A stretch of DNA of 64,000 nt from Escherichia phage Baret. The notes under the pieces were generated by a model, which was not told the DNA's origin, made no database searches, and was given only the letters and a program-made list of their open reading frames with translations. The stretch lies in the sequence record OR896834.1; one strand, written 5' to 3'. Shown piece by piece: positions 18,770 to 45,131 of this stretch (positions within the stretch are counted from its first letter, which is position 1; every line of letters begins with the position of its first letter). Made by a program: the position numbers and the translations under genes.

Positions 18770-20644
18770 TTACTTAGCTCGAATATCCTGATGCTTCACC
18801 CTGCCCATCACCTCGTGCTGTTTGCCAGGGTTAAATGGACGAGCACCCGGATTTCCAAGATACCCACAAACCCGACGAGTTACTTCAAGAGTTTCAGGGT
18901 CATGATTACCACAGATAGGGCACTTGAATCCATCTTCGGATGCTACTGTTTCACCTAAGAATCCACATTTACCACAAGAATCCACTGGAGTATTAATACC
19001 AAAGTAATGAACCTTACTAGCAGCATAATTAATAACCCATTCCAGTGCATCTGGGAATCGTTTCATATCCGGTAGTTCTACATAGGAAATGCACCCACCA
19101 GAAGCAATCGGAGTAAAGTTAGATTCATAATCAAATTTGACGTTAGGAGCAACTTTACGTTCCACATCAAGGTGGTGAGAGTTAGTGTAGTAACCTTTGG
19201 ACAGAATATCTTCATGCTCCGGGAAATATTCACGGTCTAGACGACAAAAGCGATCACATAGGGACTCTGATGGTGTAGCATACAGACTATAGCCTAACTG
19301 AGTCTCTTCCTTCTTCTGATCGACTCTATCTCGCATGTACTGCAATACACGCTGAACAAACTTGATGCAGGTCTCGGACATTGTATCTACATCTTTGCCA
19401 AACATGAACTGTAGCATTTCATGGCAACCAATATACCCTAGAGATACAGAAGCACGGTTATAGAAATGATCGAATACATATTCATCAGGCCCCAAGCGTA
19501 ACCCAAAGGCTCCTGACATATAGAGGATGGGTGCAGCTTTAGCTTGAATGTATTTTAAGCGATCAACTCTCCACTCCAACGCTTTTAATGCTGTATCCAC
19601 ACGTAGCTCAAGCAAATCAAAGAATAGATCAATATTTCCTTCAGCTTCGATAGCAATTCTAGGCAAGTTTACAGAAACAACACCTAAGTTATTACGACCG
19701 GCAGTTTCACCATCTTCTGTAGCAGCTAGGAATGAACGGCAGCCCATAGAAACTTTGTAGTCTCCAGTAACCTCTACAACTTTGTCATAGCTGATATAAT
19801 CTGGATACATACGTTCAGCAGTACATTTCATAGATAACTTCTTGATGTCATAATTAACATCTCCTGGTTTCATATTAACGCCATCACGAAGTACAAATAC
19901 CAGTTTCGGGAAGATAGCTGTACGTTTATTGATACCTAAACCATCCATGCGTACTTTCAGTATTGCCCTCTGTACTAGACGTGCTTCCCAAGAAGTTCCT
20001 AGACCAAAACCAAAGGTAATAAATGGGCTCTGACCATTAGAGTTGAACATGGTATTGATTTCATATTCTAAACCCTGACAAGCGTCATAGACTTCTTTTT
20101 CAGTCATCTCCGTAGCCATTACGGATGCTTTGGCTTCATCCTTAGTCCAACGTTTTGCAAACGCATGATTTTTATCATAGGATTTACGAACATAAGGTGC
20201 TAATACTTCATCAAGGCGATCTACAGAAGTACCACCATACTGATGGGAGCTAACTTGAGTGATAATCTGAGCAGTGATAGCCGCCGCAGTAGTGATAGAG
20301 TTTGGAGTGCTAATTTCAGCATTACCAACCTTCATACCATTCTTCAACATATCTTCCAGAGCTACCAGGCAACAGTTAGTCATGCCTAATGCAGCATAAT
20401 CAGCATCATGGAAATGAATATCCCCAATCATATGAGCATTTCGAATCTGAATTGGCATTTCTTCTAGAATCAGATACTTACTCAATTCACCTGCAAGCAT
20501 ATCCCTTTGTGTAGGGAAACGTTCTGAGGGTTTATTGGCATTATTAAACAGCAGCTCTTCATCTGCTGACCCTTCGATAATCTCTTTGCAGTTTCTAATT
20601 AACGCCTGCATTTCTTTATACTTTAGTTCTTCATTGCGATTCAT
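18770..20644 (-). CDS. nrdD: anaerobic ribonucleoside-triphosphate reductase (class III)
   Basis: C-terminal zinc ribbon CGKCG...CPICG and glycyl-radical motif RRVCGYLG; AGGAGAG RBS. Confidence 0.85.
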   Translation of the reverse strand: MNRNEELKYKEMQALIRNCKEIIEGSADEELLFNNANKPSERFPTQRDMLAGELSKYLILEEMPIQIRNAHMIGDIHFHDADYAALGMTNCCLVALEDMLKNGMKVGNAEISTPNSITTAAAITAQIITQVSSHQYGGTSVDRLDEVLAPYVRKSYDKNHAFAKRWTKDEAKASVMATEMTEKEVYDACQGLEYEINTMFNSNGQSPFITFGFGLGTSWEARLVQRAILKVRMDGLGINKRTAIFPKLVFVLRDGVNMKPGDVNYDIKKLSMKCTAERMYPDYISYDKVVEVTGDYKVSMGCRSFLAATEDGETAGRNNLGVVSVNLPRIAIEAEGNIDLFFDLLELRVDTALKALEWRVDRLKYIQAKAAPILYMSGAFGLRLGPDEYVFDHFYNRASVSLGYIGCHEMLQFMFGKDVDTMSETCIKFVQRVLQYMRDRVDQKKEETQLGYSLYATPSESLCDRFCRLDREYFPEHEDILSKGYYTNSHHLDVERKVAPNVKFDYESNFTPIASGGCISYVELPDMKRFPDALEWVINYAASKVHYFGINTPVDSCGKCGFLGETVASEDGFKCPICGNHDPETLEVTRRVCGYLGNPGARPFNPGKQHEVMGRVKHQDIRAK

Positions 20645-20923: not shown

Positions 20924-20996
20924 ATATTTGTAAGTTGATAAACAAGATCTTTTTGTTGATCCTCTGTTAGCGAAGTACACTATAGGAGTGTTATTT

Positions 20997-21749
20997 ATGG
21001 GAAAAGCACGTCAAAAAAGAGAGAACCGCAATGGTTCAAGAAAGCGTGGCAACAAATATGAGAATAACGTAATTCAGGCTGATTTTTCTAATGATTACGC
21101 TAACCCAGTTGCTAAATCCCTAGTAGGTAAAAACCGCGAGCAAAAATCATATATCAATATGATCAAGAACAACACAGTGACTGTGGGTATCGGTGAGCCA
21201 GGTACTGGTAAAACCTTTATTCCGTCCGTTCTTGCAGCTCAGGAACTCGTAGACATTCACTCAGATATTGAGCAAGTGATTCTCGTACGTCCTAATGAAC
21301 CTCTAGGTAAGTCTCTTGGTATGCTTCCTGGTGATCTGGCGGAAAAGCTAGAGCCTTGGTTAGAGCCAATAGCTGATGGTATGAAATGGGCCATCGGCGA
21401 TCATGCCTATAAGGGATATGTCGAACGTCAGAAAATTAAATTTTTGGCTGTCGAACATGCTCGTGGCAGAACTTTCAACAACTCCTATGTAATTGTCGAT
21501 GAAGCTCAGAATATTTCCGTTGAGGCAATGATTTGTCTCCTAACTCGTGTAGGGCAAGACTGCCGTTTAATTATCTGTGGAGATATAGCTCAGAAAGACA
21601 TTAAAGGTGACTCAGGTCTAGCACTCCTTATGGAAGTCTATGAGAAATATGAAAATGCCCCATTCTCAATGATCGAATTGATTGATAACGTTCGTTCTGT
21701 TGAGTCTAAAGCATTCTATGATATTTTTAAAGATATGGGAAAGGTGTAA
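20997..21749 (+). CDS. phoH: PhoH-like ATPase
   Basis: Walker A GEPGTGKTF, Walker B VIVDEAQN; TAGGAG RBS 8 nt before ATG at 20997. Confidence 0.8.
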   Translation: MGKARQKRENRNGSRKRGNKYENNVIQADFSNDYANPVAKSLVGKNREQKSYINMIKNNTVTVGIGEPGTGKTFIPSVLAAQELVDIHSDIEQVILVRPNEPLGKSLGMLPGDLAEKLEPWLEPIADGMKWAIGDHAYKGYVERQKIKFLAVEHARGRTFNNSYVIVDEAQNISVEAMICLLTRVGQDCRLIICGDIAQKDIKGDSGLALLMEVYEKYENAPFSMIELIDNVRSVESKAFYDIFKDMGKV

Positions 21750-21999: not shown

Positions 22000-22030
22000 G
22001 GGCCTGGGTATGAAAATACTCGGGCCTTTT
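22000..22030 (+). terminator. terminator-like hairpin
   Basis: GGGCC...GGGCC imperfect hairpin followed by TTTTC. Confidence 0.35.
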
Positions 22031-22047
22031 CTATCAGAAAATTTTAT

Positions 22048-22076
22048 TTGCCTAATGACAGATAATAAAGTAGAAT
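22048..22076 (+). promoter_or_regulatory. sigma70 promoter (TTGCCT-17-TAGAAT) for nrdA
   Basis: ttgcctaatgacagataataaagtagaat. Confidence 0.55.
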
Positions 22077-22114
22077 ATTCCTTAAATCCTGATAACTATA
22101 AAAAGGAAAGCCAA

Positions 22115-24445
22115 ATGAGCCATCGCATTGAAAAAGTAATTAAACGTGACGGTACTGTAGAAGACTTTGCTCCTGAAAAACTCAATGGTTGGGCAGAGTA
22201 TGGTTGCAAAACAGTTGATGTAAGTTGGTCAGCCATTACTATGGCTGCTCAAAAAACTCTGCCTAAGGGGGTTGTAGATTCCGACACTCTGATGGACGCA
22301 TTAATTAAAGCTGCTGAAAGTCTTATCAAAGATAACCCAGCATACGATGTGCCAGCAAAGGAATTACGTCTTGCGCAAATGCGTAAACGCCTTTACGACT
22401 CTTTCGAACCACCTTCTCTACGCTTCTTCCATGACCATATGGTTAGCGTAGGTGCATGGGAAGACATGAGTGCATGGATTACCGATGAGCAGTTCGAAGC
22501 TCTGAATCAGGTTATCGACCATGATCGTGACCGTCTTTTTACTAGTGGTGGACTGAAACAGTTCTTTGATAAGTATTCCCGTCGTAACATAGCCACTGGT
22601 GAAATTTATGAAACTCCGCAGTTTGCCTACATGGGTATGGCAATGGCGATGTTATCTCAACCTAGCTGGACAATTCTAGATGCAATCGACCTCTACAACG
22701 CAATGTCACTCCACAAAATCAACGTTCCTACGCCGCCACTGGTTGGTCTGCGCTCTAGTGACCGTGGATTTGCTAGTTGCTGCCTCGTGGATTCCACTGA
22801 CACGTTGGATTCAATCGACACCGCCGAGCACATCGTCTTCAAAATGGTCGCAGCCAGAGCGGGAATCGGGTATCATCTTGAAAGCCGATCAATTGCTGAT
22901 CCGGTGCGAAATGGGGCATTCCCGCATTCCGGAAAACTGCCATATTATCGACACATTGACCGCTCAGTAAAGGCCAATACTCAGCAAACTCGTGGTGGTT
23001 CTGCCACAGTGTCTTATCCGTACTTCGACCCTGAAATCATTCAATTGATGCAGGTTAAGCAACAACGTGCTACAGATGAGAATAAAATCGATAAGATGGA
23101 TTATTCTCTGAGCTTTAACAATCTTTTGTTAAAACGTTATCTTAAAAACGAAGATATTACGCTAATGTCATACTTCTATGCTCCAGAAGTTCATGAAGCG
23201 TTTTATAGTGATGACGAGGCTAAATTTGAAGAAATCTACGTGGCAGCGGAGAAACGTGTGGCATCTCTTACAAAGATCGACCACGAAGGAAAAACAGTTC
23301 CAGCAGCTCCTAAAGTCTCTGCAAAAGAAATCCTAGATACTTGGCTACGTATCCGAATGGAAACAGGACGTATGTATGCGCATCACATCGGGGAATCTAA
23401 TCGTCACGGTAATTTCCTTGATCCGATCCGTATGACAAACCTTTGTGTTGAGATTACTCAGCCTACACGCCCGTTCCACCATATCACGGAACTGTATAAA
23501 ACAAAAGAACAACTTGATCAAATGAAGCCGGAGGATATTGGTGAAGTATCTCTGTGTAACTTAGGTGGTGTTGTACTTGGACGCATGGAATCTCTGGCTG
23601 AGTGGGAAAAAACTTGCTACATCCTCCTGAAATTCGTTGATACAATTATTGAAATCCAGGATTATCCGTTCCCAACTATGGAATATACGGCTAAGAAACG
23701 TCGTAATGTTGGTATTGGACTGATGAACGCAGCAGGTGCAATGGCAGCAGAAGGTCTGGCTTATGAAGGTATTGAAGCCCGTAACTGGATTCACCGTGAG
23801 GCTGAAAAACTGTCTTACTTCCTGCATAAAGCCTCTGTACGCCTAGCTAAAGAACAGGGTGCATGTGAGTGGTTTGATCGTACTAAACCATCTAAAGGAA
23901 TTCTGGTAATCGACACGTACAAGAAAACTGTTGATGAGCTGGTATCCGTAGGTCTAGAAATGGATTGGGAGTCTCTACGTGCAGATATTCTGAAATATGG
24001 TATGCGTAACTCTGTTCTGACTGCTCAGATGCCGGGAGAAAGTTCTTCTGTTCTGTTAGGTGTTACTAACTCTATTGAACCACCTCGTAAGATTGTATCT
24101 ATCAAGGGTAGTGCAGTAAATAAAGTAATTGCAATTGCTCCAGGTGCAACCGATTGGGAAACGTTAATGAGCTATAAACTGGCCTATGATGTAGATCGTA
24201 TCGAGTGGATCAAGTGGGTAGCAACTATGCAGAAATTCTTCAGTCAGTCTATCAGTACTAATATGTACTATGACTACACCAAGTTTGAGAATGAAATCAT
24301 TCCTGGCCCAGTAGTAGTTCGTGATTTCATGACTGCTGTTAAGTATGGGTGGAAAACTTGGTATTATGCTAACTTCAATACCGCAAATGGTGGAGGTGCT
24401 GGAGAAGAAGCAGCCGGTTGTGCATCCGGTGGTTGTACTATTTAA
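22115..24445 (+). CDS. nrdA: ribonucleoside-diphosphate reductase large subunit (class Ia)
   Basis: 776 aa from ATG with AAGGAAAG RBS; ATP-cone N-terminus and C-terminal Cys pair CASGGC typical of NrdA. Confidence 0.88.
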   Translation: MSHRIEKVIKRDGTVEDFAPEKLNGWAEYGCKTVDVSWSAITMAAQKTLPKGVVDSDTLMDALIKAAESLIKDNPAYDVPAKELRLAQMRKRLYDSFEPPSLRFFHDHMVSVGAWEDMSAWITDEQFEALNQVIDHDRDRLFTSGGLKQFFDKYSRRNIATGEIYETPQFAYMGMAMAMLSQPSWTILDAIDLYNAMSLHKINVPTPPLVGLRSSDRGFASCCLVDSTDTLDSIDTAEHIVFKMVAARAGIGYHLESRSIADPVRNGAFPHSGKLPYYRHIDRSVKANTQQTRGGSATVSYPYFDPEIIQLMQVKQQRATDENKIDKMDYSLSFNNLLLKRYLKNEDITLMSYFYAPEVHEAFYSDDEAKFEEIYVAAEKRVASLTKIDHEGKTVPAAPKVSAKEILDTWLRIRMETGRMYAHHIGESNRHGNFLDPIRMTNLCVEITQPTRPFHHITELYKTKEQLDQMKPEDIGEVSLCNLGGVVLGRMESLAEWEKTCYILLKFVDTIIEIQDYPFPTMEYTAKKRRNVGIGLMNAAGAMAAEGLAYEGIEARNWIHREAEKLSYFLHKASVRLAKEQGACEWFDRTKPSKGILVIDTYKKTVDELVSVGLEMDWESLRADILKYGMRNSVLTAQMPGESSSVLLGVTNSIEPPRKIVSIKGSAVNKVIAIAPGATDWETLMSYKLAYDVDRIEWIKWVATMQKFFSQSISTNMYYDYTKFENEIIPGPVVVRDFMTAVKYGWKTWYYANFNTANGGGAGEEAAGCASGGCTI

Positions 24446-43357: not shown

Positions 43358-43386
43358 TTGCCTTCTCTCTTATTTATTGTTATAAT
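43358..43386 (+). promoter_or_regulatory. sigma70 promoter (TTGCCT-17-TATAAT)
   Basis: aaaaattcatttgccttctctcttatttattgttataat. Confidence 0.65.
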
Positions 43387-44008: not shown

Positions 44009-44203
44009 ATGTTAACAATTAAAATAATGTCAGCCAAGAATGGTGAACATATCCATACAGGCAAAAGCGTAAGCTTTAATCCTAGAAATAAGAGATTGGC
44101 TATAGTTGGAGTAGATCAAGCCATCTTTTTAAAAGAAGATGAAGTAGCATACGTCATGAACCAAACTGGTAAGACAGTTTCCGTATACTATGGAAAAGTA
44201 TAA
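44009..44203 (+). CDS. hypothetical protein (64 aa)
   Basis: Track ORF, AGGAG RBS. Confidence 0.45.
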   Translation: MLTIKIMSAKNGEHIHTGKSVSFNPRNKRLAIVGVDQAIFLKEDEVAYVMNQTGKTVSVYYGKV

Positions 44204-44245
44204 AGAATAAAGAGCTGAGCCAAATTCTAGCATCGTGGAGATCTA

Positions 44246-44614
44246 ATGAAAGCATATCAAAATCTTAAGTCTGGCGTAATTAATCTTGTTCATGATAATC
44301 AGATTATTCAACTGTACTCTAAAAATGGCGAACTTAAACAAAAAGTTCTGGTTGAGGATCTAGAGGGTATTACACCCCATTTTGACCCCGAGTCCTTTCG
44401 TGAAGTCAAGGTGGAAGTCGCCCCTCAAATTGAAGGTGGTCAGCACCTAAATGTCAATGTGTTAAGTCGTGATCAGCTTTTGGATGCACAGAAACATCCT
44501 GAAAAATACCCTCAATTAACTATCCGTGTTTCAGGGTACGCTGTGCGTTTTAACGCACTGACGCGTGAACAGCAGAACGACGTTATTAGTCGTACATTTA
44601 CTCAGGCGATGTAA
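44246..44614 (+). CDS. grcA: autonomous glycyl-radical cofactor, GrcA/YfiD homologue
   Basis: C-terminus [60 protein letters not shown] is near-identical in pattern to enterobacterial GrcA, including glycyl-radical motif RVSGYAV. Confidence 0.85.
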
Positions 44615-44695: not shown

Positions 44696-45010
44696 GTGGA
44701 TCGAGCATTAAGACGTCATCACCGGCAACGTGTAAAGAACAACCGCAAGAAGTATTGGACAGTCTTCCCACATGAAGAAAGCCCTAAACGGTTAGGTATT
44801 ATCACTACTACTCCTTGTATCTGTTCTTGTTGGATGTGCGGGAATCCTCGCAAATACTTTAAGAATAGTAAAGCAGGGATGAAAACCTCGGAGATTAGGA
44901 AAATGGAAGCAATGATTACGGATATTTCAAATGATGAATTTGATGGCTTTGTAGGATTCGGAGAAGGAATTAGCTCAGGCTGTTTCGAAGATGTACGCCC
45001 CGATTTGTAA
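44696..45010 (+). CDS. hypothetical basic Cys-containing protein (104 aa, GTG start)
   Basis: GTG 6 nt after AGGAG. Confidence 0.45.
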   Translation: MDRALRRHHRQRVKNNRKKYWTVFPHEESPKRLGIITTTPCICSCWMCGNPRKYFKNSKAGMKTSEIRKMEAMITDISNDEFDGFVGFGEGISSGCFEDVRPDL

Positions 45011-45018
45011 TTAATAAC

Positions 45019-45055
45019 AAACCCCAGCTATTGAATAGGTAGTCTGGGGTTTTTC
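45019..45055 (+). terminator. Rho-independent terminator
   Basis: ACCCCAG...CTGGGGT hairpin followed by TTTTTCTG. Confidence 0.7.
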
Positions 45056-45131
45056 TGTATACAGGTAGATAATTTATGTATAATAAAATTCATCCACATT
45101 AGGTTAATTTAAAAAACTTAATGGAGGTAAT

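What the first reader, a model, noticed from the sequence alone, without database searches (positions are those of the whole stretch)
44246..44614. Phage-encoded GrcA (YfiD) glycyl-radical spare part, with class III RNR NrdD but no NrdG activase
The 122-aa product carries a C-terminus almost superimposable on enterobacterial GrcA, including RVSGYAV. The phage also encodes NrdD (18770-20644), but no radical-SAM activase ORF (CxxxCxxC) is visible, implying dependence on host activases. A phage GrcA suggests repair of oxygen-damaged glycyl-radical enzymes during infection, or cross-talk with NrdD activation.
Basis: partly seen in the sequence, partly recalled or inferred. Interest (0 to 1): 0.6.

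Follow-up and report, generated by a model that had tools for sequence, protein, structure and literature searches.

The report
T5-type phage copy of GrcA
This T5-like phage carries a small "spare part" protein that can replace the oxygen-damaged tip of the host's pyruvate formate-lyase; the gene is real and under selection, but it is already annotated in T5-like phages and its T4 counterpart was shown to work in 2001, so it is ordinary.

Summary
Window 44246-44614 (+) encodes a 122-aa protein whose last ~62 residues are 74% identical to E. coli GrcA and 80% identical to the PflB C-terminus, including RVSGYAV. The window is a T5-like phage (Tequintavirus), 99.9% identical here to vB_Eco_mar004NP2. 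NrdD at 18770-20644 (-) is intact. No NrdG or PflA homologue exists in the window or in that near-identical complete genome.

None of this is new. The gene is T5.056, flagged as a glycine-radical-domain protein in the T5 reference record. Several T5-like records annotate it as GrcA. It is ~53% identical over its full length to T4 Vs.6 (Y06I), a biochemically validated spare part for oxygen-cleaved PFL that the host PFL activase activates. NrdD without NrdG in T5-type phages was noted in 2013.

Additional results:
- The N-terminal ~50 residues are phage-type (MKAY...), not YfiD-like.
- The gene is under strong purifying selection (pN/pS 0.08).
- In jumbo and Aeromonas phages grcA sits inside nrdD-nrdG operons. 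This suggests a link through formate, which PFL produces and this type of NrdD uses as reductant.
- The only CxxxCxxC ORF, 104 aa just downstream, is not an activase.

The parts
44246..44614 (+). grcA-like gene (T5.056 orthologue), 122 aa; autonomous glycyl radical cofactor of the phage Vs.6/Y06I type
   Evidence: ORF. Pfam Gly_radical. PDB GrcA and PflB matches. PHROG 1209 over full length. 100% identical protein in Salmonella phage PMBT29 and >=90% identity in about 428 phage records. pN/pS 0.084 among 29 T5-like alleles.
44426..44611 (+). Glycyl radical domain (residues 61-122), PFL C-terminus mimic; radical glycine Gly97 is the codon at 44534-44536 within RVSGYAV
   Evidence: 80% identical to PflB 698-759 and 74% to GrcA. 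45 invariant columns with T4 Vs.6, Aeromonas phage ZPAH1 GrcA, E. coli GrcA and PflB. pN/pS 0.021.
44246..44425 (+). Phage-type N-terminal region (residues 1-60, MKAYQ...), not alignable to E. coli YfiD residues 1-50
   Evidence: The NCBIfam GrcA model and PDB 6owr align only from residue 48-50. BLASTP against the YfiD N-terminus finds only 11 residues. It is collinear with the T4 Vs.6 N-terminus from M1. It is still constrained, pN/pS 0.136.
44237..44240 (+). Shine-Dalgarno GGAG, 5 nt before the ATG
   Evidence: Read directly from the sequence.
43358..43386 (+). Candidate promoter of the transcription unit (TTGCCT-17-TATAAT with TG), at the position of T5 promoter P11
   Evidence: Consensus scan, whose total count is not above chance. 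The position between tRNA-Thr and the T5.058 homologue matches the promoter P11 annotated in NC_005859.
44696..45010 (+). Co-transcribed downstream ORF (orf104, T5.055 orthologue), basic Cys4 protein with CICSCWMC; neighbour, function unknown, not an activase
   Evidence: Only CxxxCxxC in the window. PHROG 4499, unknown function. No Pfam or PDB hit. rSAM maturase model at 14.7 bits against a cut-off of 380. Always 84 nt downstream of grcA in T5-likes and absent next to grcA in other phages.
45019..45056 (+). Rho-independent terminator hairpin plus U-run, ending the grcA-orf104 unit
   Evidence: MFE -19.6 kcal/mol, z -3.64, 0 of 200 shuffles fold as well. A terminator is annotated at the equivalent place in the T5 record.
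18770..20644 (-). nrdD, class III (anaerobic) ribonucleotide reductase, 624 aa, no ATP-cone; glycyl motif RRVCGYLG, Zn-ribbon cysteines and the M-G-C active-site motif are all present
   Evidence: Pfam NRDD 2.5e-171. NCBIfam NF006732 839.7 bits, above the 657 cut-off. 54% identical to E. coli NrdD from residue 112 onward, with the motifs conserved.

Best explanation
The ORF is the T5-group orthologue (T5.056) of the phage Vs.6/Y06I family of autonomous glycyl radical cofactors, a 'spare part' for the host's pyruvate formate-lyase.

Proposed mechanism, inferred from the homologues:
1. The phage makes the 14-kDa protein early, from a tRNA-region transcription unit.
2. The host's pre-existing PFL-activating enzyme PflA puts a radical on Gly97.
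3. The protein's C-terminal 62 residues are a near copy of PflB 698-759. They dock onto PFL whose own glycyl loop has been cut by oxygen at Gly734, and restore pyruvate -> acetyl-CoA + formate.

T5 shuts down host gene expression (established knowledge, not tested here), so the infected cell presumably cannot replace PFL or its own GrcA. The phage copy would therefore keep fermentative carbon and energy flow going in micro-oxic gut-type conditions.

A likely added benefit, which is inference: formate is the reductant of the E. coli/T4-type class III RNR, and this phage encodes such an NrdD. That NrdD, lacking a phage NrdG, would have to be activated by host NrdG.

Shown here: identity of the domain, family membership, purifying selection, absence of any phage activase, and grcA-nrdDG linkage in other phages. 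Inferred: activation by PflA, docking to cleaved PFL, the formate rationale, and use of host NrdG.
For: Domain and family:
- The domain matches Gly_radical, GrcA and PflB, with 45 positions invariant with GrcA and PflB.
- The protein belongs full-length to the phage family PHROG 1209 and is ~53% identical over residues 1-122 to T4-like Vs.6, annotated GrcA.
- T4 Y06I and E. coli YfiD are the two validated spare parts. Both are activated by E. coli PFL-AE and restore cleaved PFL (PMC8683613).

Selection and conservation:
- pN/pS is 0.084 overall and 0.021 in the radical domain across 29 alleles.
- The gene is present in T5 itself (L018) and at >=90% identity in about 428 phage records.

No phage activase.

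Link to class III RNR:
- grcA lies inside nrdD-nrdG operons in jumbo phages (nrdD-grcA-orf-nrdG).
- It does so in an Aeromonas phage-65-sized contig (nrdB-nrdD-nrdG-grcA-grx) and in Aeromonas phage ZPAH1.
- E. coli and T4 class III RNRs use formate as electron donor through a Cys-Met pair (PMC4390871). The window NrdD keeps the M-G-C motif.

Reliance on host NrdG:
- The 31 residues around the NrdD radical glycine are 81% identical to E. coli NrdD. The figure is 58-68% for three phage NrdDs that come with their own NrdG.
Against: - No biochemical or genetic data exist for the T5-group protein itself.
- It scores below the curated GrcA equivalog cut-off (121.5 against 170 bits). Its N-terminal ~50 residues do not match YfiD, although the YfiD N-terminus matters for radical installation by PFL-AE (PMC8683613).
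- In T5-likes grcA is about 24 kb from nrdD and not in one operon with it, so the formate link rests on other phage lineages.
- Both could simply be 'anaerobic' genes that travel together.
- Whether E. coli NrdG can activate a heterologous phage NrdD was not established from any source read here.
Confidence: 0.8

Rival explanations
1. The protein is a spare part or radical donor for the phage's own class III RNR (NrdD), compensating for the missing NrdG.
For: grcA is embedded in nrdD-nrdG operons in jumbo and Aeromonas phages. T5-likes have NrdD but no NrdG.
Against: - The radical domain copies PFL, not NrdD. RVSGYAV and its flanks are 80% identical to PflB 698-759, whereas NrdD has RRVCGYLG preceded by a Zn-ribbon.
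- The same PFL-type sequence is kept in phages that do have NrdG, so it does not substitute for NrdG.
- GrcA is a substrate of an activase, not an activase. It has no Fe-S or SAM motifs.
Confidence: 0.03
2. It serves host glycyl radical enzymes other than, or in addition to, PflB, for example the 2-ketobutyrate formate-lyase TdcE. Some GenBank records name it that way.
For: Several records call it 2-ketobutyrate formate-lyase. PMC8683613 speculates that GrcA-type proteins could repair other GREs.
Against: - The best full-length enzyme matches are PflB (5e-27). Other GREs such as YbiW, diol dehydratase and CutC are at 1e-12 or weaker.
- The NCBIfam PFL1 model TIGR01255 scores 85.9 bits, against 41.7 for NF007437 and 54.2 for PFL2-3.
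- TdcE itself was not compared here.
Confidence: 0.1
3. It is a decoy that soaks up host PflA or binds PFL unproductively, shutting down host fermentation rather than sustaining it.
For: The divergent N-terminus could alter how it is activated. Phages often inhibit host metabolism.
Against: - The T4 family member restores PFL activity.
- The near-perfect conservation of the whole catalytic loop and flanking strands, with pN/pS 0.021, is what productive docking requires. A decoy would not need the exact PFL active-site geometry.
Confidence: 0.05
4. It is a non-functional remnant of a captured pflB/grcA 3' end.
For: It is short and matches only the C-terminal domain of a 760-aa enzyme.
Against: - The ORF is intact and has an SD sequence.
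- It is conserved in hundreds of T5-like genomes with pN/pS 0.084.
- Homologues occur in T4-like, jumbo and Aeromonas phages.
- DNA identity to E. coli pflB and grcA is only about 74% while the protein is conserved.
Confidence: 0.02

Closest known systems
Bacteriophage T4 Vs.6 (Y06I), autonomous glycyl radical cofactor
   Same: - Both are standalone proteins of about 120 aa with the same MKAYQ N-terminus and are collinear over the full length.
- Both fall in PHROG 1209.
- T4-like Vs.6 proteins are about 53% identical to the window protein.
- Both carry the PFL-type glycyl radical domain.
- The T4 protein is activated by E. coli PFL-AE and reconstitutes oxygen-fragmented PFL.
   Different: - The last 60 residues of T4 Vs.6 are 100% identical to E. 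coli GrcA, and the DNA is 98.4% identical over 185 nt. This points to a recent exchange with the host.
- The window gene is only about 74% identical at DNA level to both E. coli grcA and pflB. Its protein mixes GrcA-like and PflB-like residues (LLDA, TFTQ-M).
- T4 also encodes its own NrdG; the T5-like phage does not.
E. coli GrcA (YfiD), PDB 6owr
   Same: Similar size (127 against 122 aa). The C-terminal domain is 74% identical, including RVSGYAV. The expected activase (PflA) and target (oxygen-cleaved PflB) are the same.
   Different: - The N-terminal ~50 residues do not align.
- The score is below the curated equivalog cut-off (121.5 against 170 bits).
- It is phage-encoded and expressed from a phage early tRNA-region unit rather than under host regulation.
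E. coli PflB C-terminal glycyl radical domain (residues 698-759)
   Same: 80% identity over 61 residues with no gaps, and the same C-terminal ending TFTQxM.
   Different: The phage protein lacks the 10-stranded barrel and the catalytic Cys418/Cys419. It cannot be an enzyme on its own.
T5.056 of the phage T5 reference genome (NC_005859)
   Same: Orthologue at 98% identity, in the same position after tRNA-Met and before T5.055.
   Different: The reference calls it 'putative acetyltransferase-related protein' (by IPR001150). The window phage has an extra 64-aa ORF between tRNA-Met and grcA.

Membership tests
GrcA/YfiD autonomous glycyl radical cofactor (NCBIfam TIGR04365) | Standalone small protein (~14 kDa) rather than the C-terminus of a full-length GRE | tested here: met
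   122-aa ORF with its own SD and stop. No PFL-like sequence lies upstream, where there is a tRNA-Met and a 64-aa ORF.
GrcA/YfiD autonomous glycyl radical cofactor (NCBIfam TIGR04365) | C-terminal glycyl radical domain that duplicates the PFL C-terminus, with RVSGYAV | tested here: met
   Pfam Gly_radical at 66.4 bits, above the 22.2 cut-off. 74% identical to GrcA and 80% to PflB. 45 invariant columns.
GrcA/YfiD autonomous glycyl radical cofactor (NCBIfam TIGR04365) | Score at or above the curated equivalog cut-off (170 bits) | tested here: not met
   121.5 bits. Only residues 50-122 align to model positions 52-126.
GrcA/YfiD autonomous glycyl radical cofactor (NCBIfam TIGR04365) | YfiD-type N-terminal region (residues 1-60, needed for efficient radical installation) | tested here: not met
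   BLASTP of the N-terminal 61 residues against YfiD 1-67 aligns only 11 residues just before the domain. The role of the YfiD N-terminus is taken from PMC8683613.
GrcA/YfiD autonomous glycyl radical cofactor (NCBIfam TIGR04365) | Glycyl radical installed by PFL-AE, and rescue of oxygen-cleaved PFL | not testable with these tools
   Biochemical property. Shown only for YfiD and T4 Y06I.
Phage Vs.6/Y06I family (PHROG 1209) | Full-length match to the family profile, including the phage-type N-terminus | tested here: met
   PHROG 1209 at E 4.7e-48, residues 1-122 on profile positions 1-121 of 121. tblastn covers residues 1-122 of T4-like vs.6 genes at about 53% identity. M1-K2-A3-Y4 are invariant with T4 and ZPAH1.
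Radical-SAM GRE activase (NrdG / PflA) anywhere in the phage | ORF with CxxxCxxC in a radical-SAM fold; homology to NrdG or PflA | tested here: not met
   - tblastn best E-values in the window are 2.5 and 2.9.
- No hit better than E = 0.13 in the whole genome of the near-identical phage.
- The only CxxxCxxC ORF is 104 aa with a ~75-aa conserved core, no Pfam or PDB match, and 14.7 bits against a cut-off of 380 on an rSAM model.
- Pattern hits in the rest of the genome are out of frame with the annotated genes.
Class III ribonucleotide reductase NrdD (formate-type) | Curated NrdD model above cut-off; radical glycine motif, C-terminal Zn-ribbon cysteines, active-site Cys and the Met-x-Cys of formate-using enzymes | tested here: met
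   NF006732 at 839.7 bits, above the 657 cut-off. The alignment to E. coli NrdD conserves NC(C/M)L, MGCRSFL, CxxC...CxxC and RRVCGYLG. Formate use by the E. coli/T4 type is taken from PMC4390871; activity was not tested.

The most novel reading that the evidence does not exclude
Phage GrcA is part of the anaerobic dNTP-supply module, not just a general metabolic helper. By keeping host PFL alive in micro-oxic conditions it would secure formate, the obligatory reductant of the phage's formate-type NrdD. This would explain two observations: grcA has been inserted into nrdD-nrdG operons in at least two phage lineages, and it is retained in T5-likes that carry NrdD but depend on host activases for both proteins.
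Probability: 0.35. Interest if true: 0.4.

Novelty: already known. Interest (0 to 1): 0.15.

Why it matters
As it stands this is a correct annotation of a known phage auxiliary metabolic gene. It shows that T5-type phages, like T4, carry a repair part for a host fermentation enzyme, and that they rely on host radical-SAM activases for it and, by inference, for their anaerobic ribonucleotide reductase. This bears on how coliphages replicate in the low-oxygen gut. The modest added value lies in three points. First, many database records misname the gene (acetyltransferase-related, pyruvate formate-lyase, 2-ketobutyrate formate-lyase, ribonucleotide reductase subunit, hypothetical). Second, the phage family has its own N-terminal region. 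Third, the operon linkage to nrdDG suggests a testable formate-supply rationale.

Tried and rejected
- Hidden NrdG or PflA. I ran a six-frame CxxxCxxC scan, tblastn with E. coli NrdG, T4 NrdG and E. coli PflA on the window and the full mar004NP2 genome, and DNA-pattern scans of the remaining genome. The hits from those pattern scans are all out of frame with the annotated genes. Rejected.\n- orf104 (44696-45010) as a miniature activase. It has no Pfam or PDB hit and only a motif-level 14.7-bit match to an rSAM maturase model. Its conserved core is about 75 aa. It is never next to grcA outside T5-likes. Rejected as an activase; its function remains unknown.\n- Recent capture from the host. The window gene is only about 74% identical at DNA level to E. 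coli grcA and pflB. Rejected for the T5-like gene, although true for the 3' half of T4 vs.6.\n- Literature searches for T5 with nrdD and nrdG, and for Tequintavirus with anaerobic RNR, returned nothing. The relevant statement was found in PMC3653736 instead.\n- No paper read here says whether host NrdG can activate a phage NrdD.\n- Two read/search calls failed on term length. One script failed because locus files are bundled.\n- I did not run structure prediction or the large protein-database searches. With 74-80% identity to solved structures they would not change the verdict.

Full report
What the window is. A 2-kb stretch around the finding is 99.9% identical to Escherichia phage vB_Eco_mar004NP2 and to several Salmonella phages. 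It matches 443 phage records, almost all T5-like (Demerecviridae, Tequintavirus). Window 18668-48371 aligns to mar004NP2 9708-39413 at 98.8%. The finding lies at the end of the T5-type tRNA gene cluster; 22 tRNA genes lie between 34092 and 43971.

The observation. The ORF 44246-44614 (+) exists as described: ATG start, 122 aa, GGAG 5 nt upstream.
- It matches Pfam Gly_radical (E 3.8e-18, residues 62-103).
- It matches the solved structure of E. coli GrcA (6owr, E 1.6e-30, residues 48-121) and PflB (E 5e-27, residues 61-122).
- BLASTP gives 74% identity to GrcA over residues 51-122 and 80% to PflB 699-759.
- RVSGYAV is present, with the radical glycine at residue 97.
- A five-way alignment with T4 Vs.6, an Aeromonas phage GrcA, E. 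coli GrcA and PflB has 45 invariant columns, all but one in the last 60 residues.
- The NCBIfam GrcA equivalog model scores 121.5 bits, below its 170-bit cut-off, because only residues 50-122 align.
- The first ~50 residues do not match YfiD.

The family. PHROG 1209 ('unknown function') matches the whole protein (E 4.7e-48). tblastn against 50,697 phage records finds relatives in 1585 of them. About 428 are at >=90% identity (T5-likes). More than 1000 are at about 52-56% identity over the full length in T4-like phages, where the gene is vs.6 and is often annotated 'autonomous glycyl radical cofactor GrcA'. The remainder are in jumbo and Aeromonas phages.

I recovered T4 Vs.6 from the T4 GT7 record (120 aa). 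It starts MKAYQ like the window protein. Its last 60 residues are identical to E. coli GrcA, and the DNA is 98.4% identical over 185 nt. The window gene is only about 74% identical at DNA level to both E. coli grcA and pflB. T4 has therefore recently exchanged this segment with its host, whereas the T5-group gene is an older, independently evolving lineage.

T4 Vs.6 is Y06I. According to PMC8683613 (citing Wagner et al. 2001), YfiD and Y06I are the only two validated spare-part proteins. Both are activated by PFL-AE and both restore activity to oxygen-cleaved PFL. [quoted passage not shown]

Is the gene functional? Among 31 T5-like copies (29 distinct DNA sequences, 18 proteins) taken from IMG/VR loci, pN/pS is 0.084 overall, 0.136 for residues 1-60 and 0.021 for residues 61-122. 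Phage T5 itself carries it at 98% identity as T5.056. There it is annotated 'putative acetyltransferase-related protein' through InterPro IPR001150.

The T5 record annotates a promoter (P11) upstream of T5.058 and a terminator after T5.055. In the window, a TTGCCT-17-TATAAT site sits at 43358-43386 and a strong hairpin plus U-run at 45019-45056 (dG -19.6, z -3.6). These bracket the unit orf96, tRNA-Ile, tRNA-Met, orf64, grcA, orf104.

NrdD and the missing activase. The ORF 18770-20644 (-) is a complete class III RNR.
- It matches Pfam NRDD at 2.5e-171 and NCBIfam NF006732 at 839.7 bits against a cut-off of 657.
- It is 54% identical to E. coli NrdD from residue 112 onward, so it has no ATP-cone.
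- The active-site Cys residues, the M-G-C motif, the Zn-ribbon cysteines and RRVCGYLG are all conserved.

No activase was found by any route.
- The only CxxxCxxC in a six-frame translation of the window is in a 104-aa ORF.
- E. coli NrdG and PflA find nothing in the window (best E 2.5 and 2.9).
- E. coli NrdG, T4 NrdG and E. coli PflA find nothing better than E = 0.13 in the entire mar004NP2 genome.
- That genome has no annotated activase.
- CxxxCxxC pattern hits outside the window region fall out of frame.

Across the phage collection, NrdD-like sequences occur in 2908 records and NrdG-like sequences in 2273. This agrees with a large NrdD-only group. It has been published: Dwivedi et al. [quoted passage not shown]

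The 31 residues around the radical glycine of the window NrdD are 81% identical to E. coli NrdD. The figure is 58-68% for three phage NrdDs that travel with their own NrdG. This is weak support for reliance on host NrdG.

The neighbouring Cys-rich ORF. orf104 (44696-45010, GTG start, AGGAG upstream) carries CICSCWMC.
- It is T5.055 (hypothetical) and falls in PHROG 4499.
- It has no Pfam or PDB match.
- It gives only a 14.7-bit motif-level match to a radical-SAM maturase model with a 380-bit cut-off.
- Its conserved core is about 75 residues, followed by a variable tail.
- It follows grcA in all T5-like loci but in none of the other phage lineages.
It is too small for a radical-SAM fold and is not an activase. 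It looks like a small basic zinc-binding protein of unknown role.

Link to ribonucleotide reduction. In T5-likes grcA and nrdD are about 24 kb apart. In other phages grcA sits inside the class III RNR operon:
- nrdD-grcA-orf115-nrdG in jumbo phage contigs of about 345-357 kb (L041-L043);
- nrdB-nrdD-nrdG-grcA-glutaredoxin in a 235,229-bp contig (L076);
- nrdA-nrdB-nrdD-nrdG-grcA-thioredoxin-glutaredoxin in Aeromonas phage ZPAH1.
In all of them the GrcA sequence remains PFL-type ([19 protein letters not shown]). It is therefore not a spare part for NrdD.

The E. coli and T4 class III RNRs use formate as electron donor (PMC4390871), and PFL is the enzyme that makes formate. A reasonable reading is that phage GrcA protects the formate supply, as well as acetyl-CoA and ATP, needed for anaerobic dNTP synthesis when oxygen intrudes. 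This is inference from gene neighbourhood and pathway knowledge. I put it at about 0.35.

Verdict. It is an annotated, conserved T5-group gene belonging to a phage family whose T4 member was characterised biochemically, and the NrdD-without-NrdG arrangement has been described. Strictly, it fails the curated bacterial GrcA equivalog threshold because of its phage-type N-terminus. It is best filed as a Vs.6/Y06I-family phage GrcA. Interest is low.

Noticed in passing
window 44696-45010 (+): A 104-aa basic ORF (T5.055 orthologue) lies 84 nt downstream of grcA and is co-transcribed with it. It carries CICSCWMC, the only CxxxCxxC in the window. It falls in PHROG 4499 (unknown function), has no Pfam or PDB hit, and has a conserved core of about 75 aa with a variable tail. 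mar004NP2 annotates only a 35-aa fragment of it.
   Followed up: partly
L009 6546-6908 (-) (T4 GT7, KJ477686.1): The 3' 185 nt of T4 vs.6 are 98.4% identical to E. coli K-12 grcA, and the last 60 aa are 100% identical. This implies a recent host-phage exchange. vs.6 is not annotated at all in this T4 GT7 record.
   Followed up: partly
L041 8114-11157; L076 7565-10237; L010 1692-4387: In jumbo phages and Aeromonas T4-like phages grcA sits inside the class III RNR operon (nrdD-grcA-orf115-nrdG, or nrdD-nrdG-grcA followed by thioredoxin/glutaredoxin genes). The jumbo-phage NrdD has RRVSGYLG instead of RRVCGYLG.
   Followed up: partly
L011 and L034 (IMGVR_UViG_2974601769_000001, both contig ends): One 110.9-kb IMG/VR contig carries two different grcA alleles (99% and 91% identical to the window protein) near its two ends. 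This may be a chimeric or concatemer assembly of two T5-like phages.
   Followed up: no
window 44009-44203 (+): A 64-aa ORF (PHROG 3909) lies between tRNA-Met and grcA. It is absent at this position in T5 itself and present in only some T5-like loci.
   Followed up: no
window 18770-20644 (-) and 20988-21749 (+): The phage NrdD lacks the N-terminal ATP-cone of E. coli NrdD; the alignment starts at host residue 112. It is separated from nrdA (22010-24445) by a PhoH-like gene, the arrangement described for T5, SPC35 and EPS7.
   Followed up: partly
public records matched: The same gene carries at least seven different product names across GenBank T5-like records: acetyltransferase-related, pyruvate formate-lyase, 2-ketobutyrate formate-lyase, ribonucleotide reductase subunit, glycyl radical cofactor, GrcA and hypothetical. 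PHROG 1209 is labelled 'unknown function' although T4 Y06I has been characterised.
   Followed up: no
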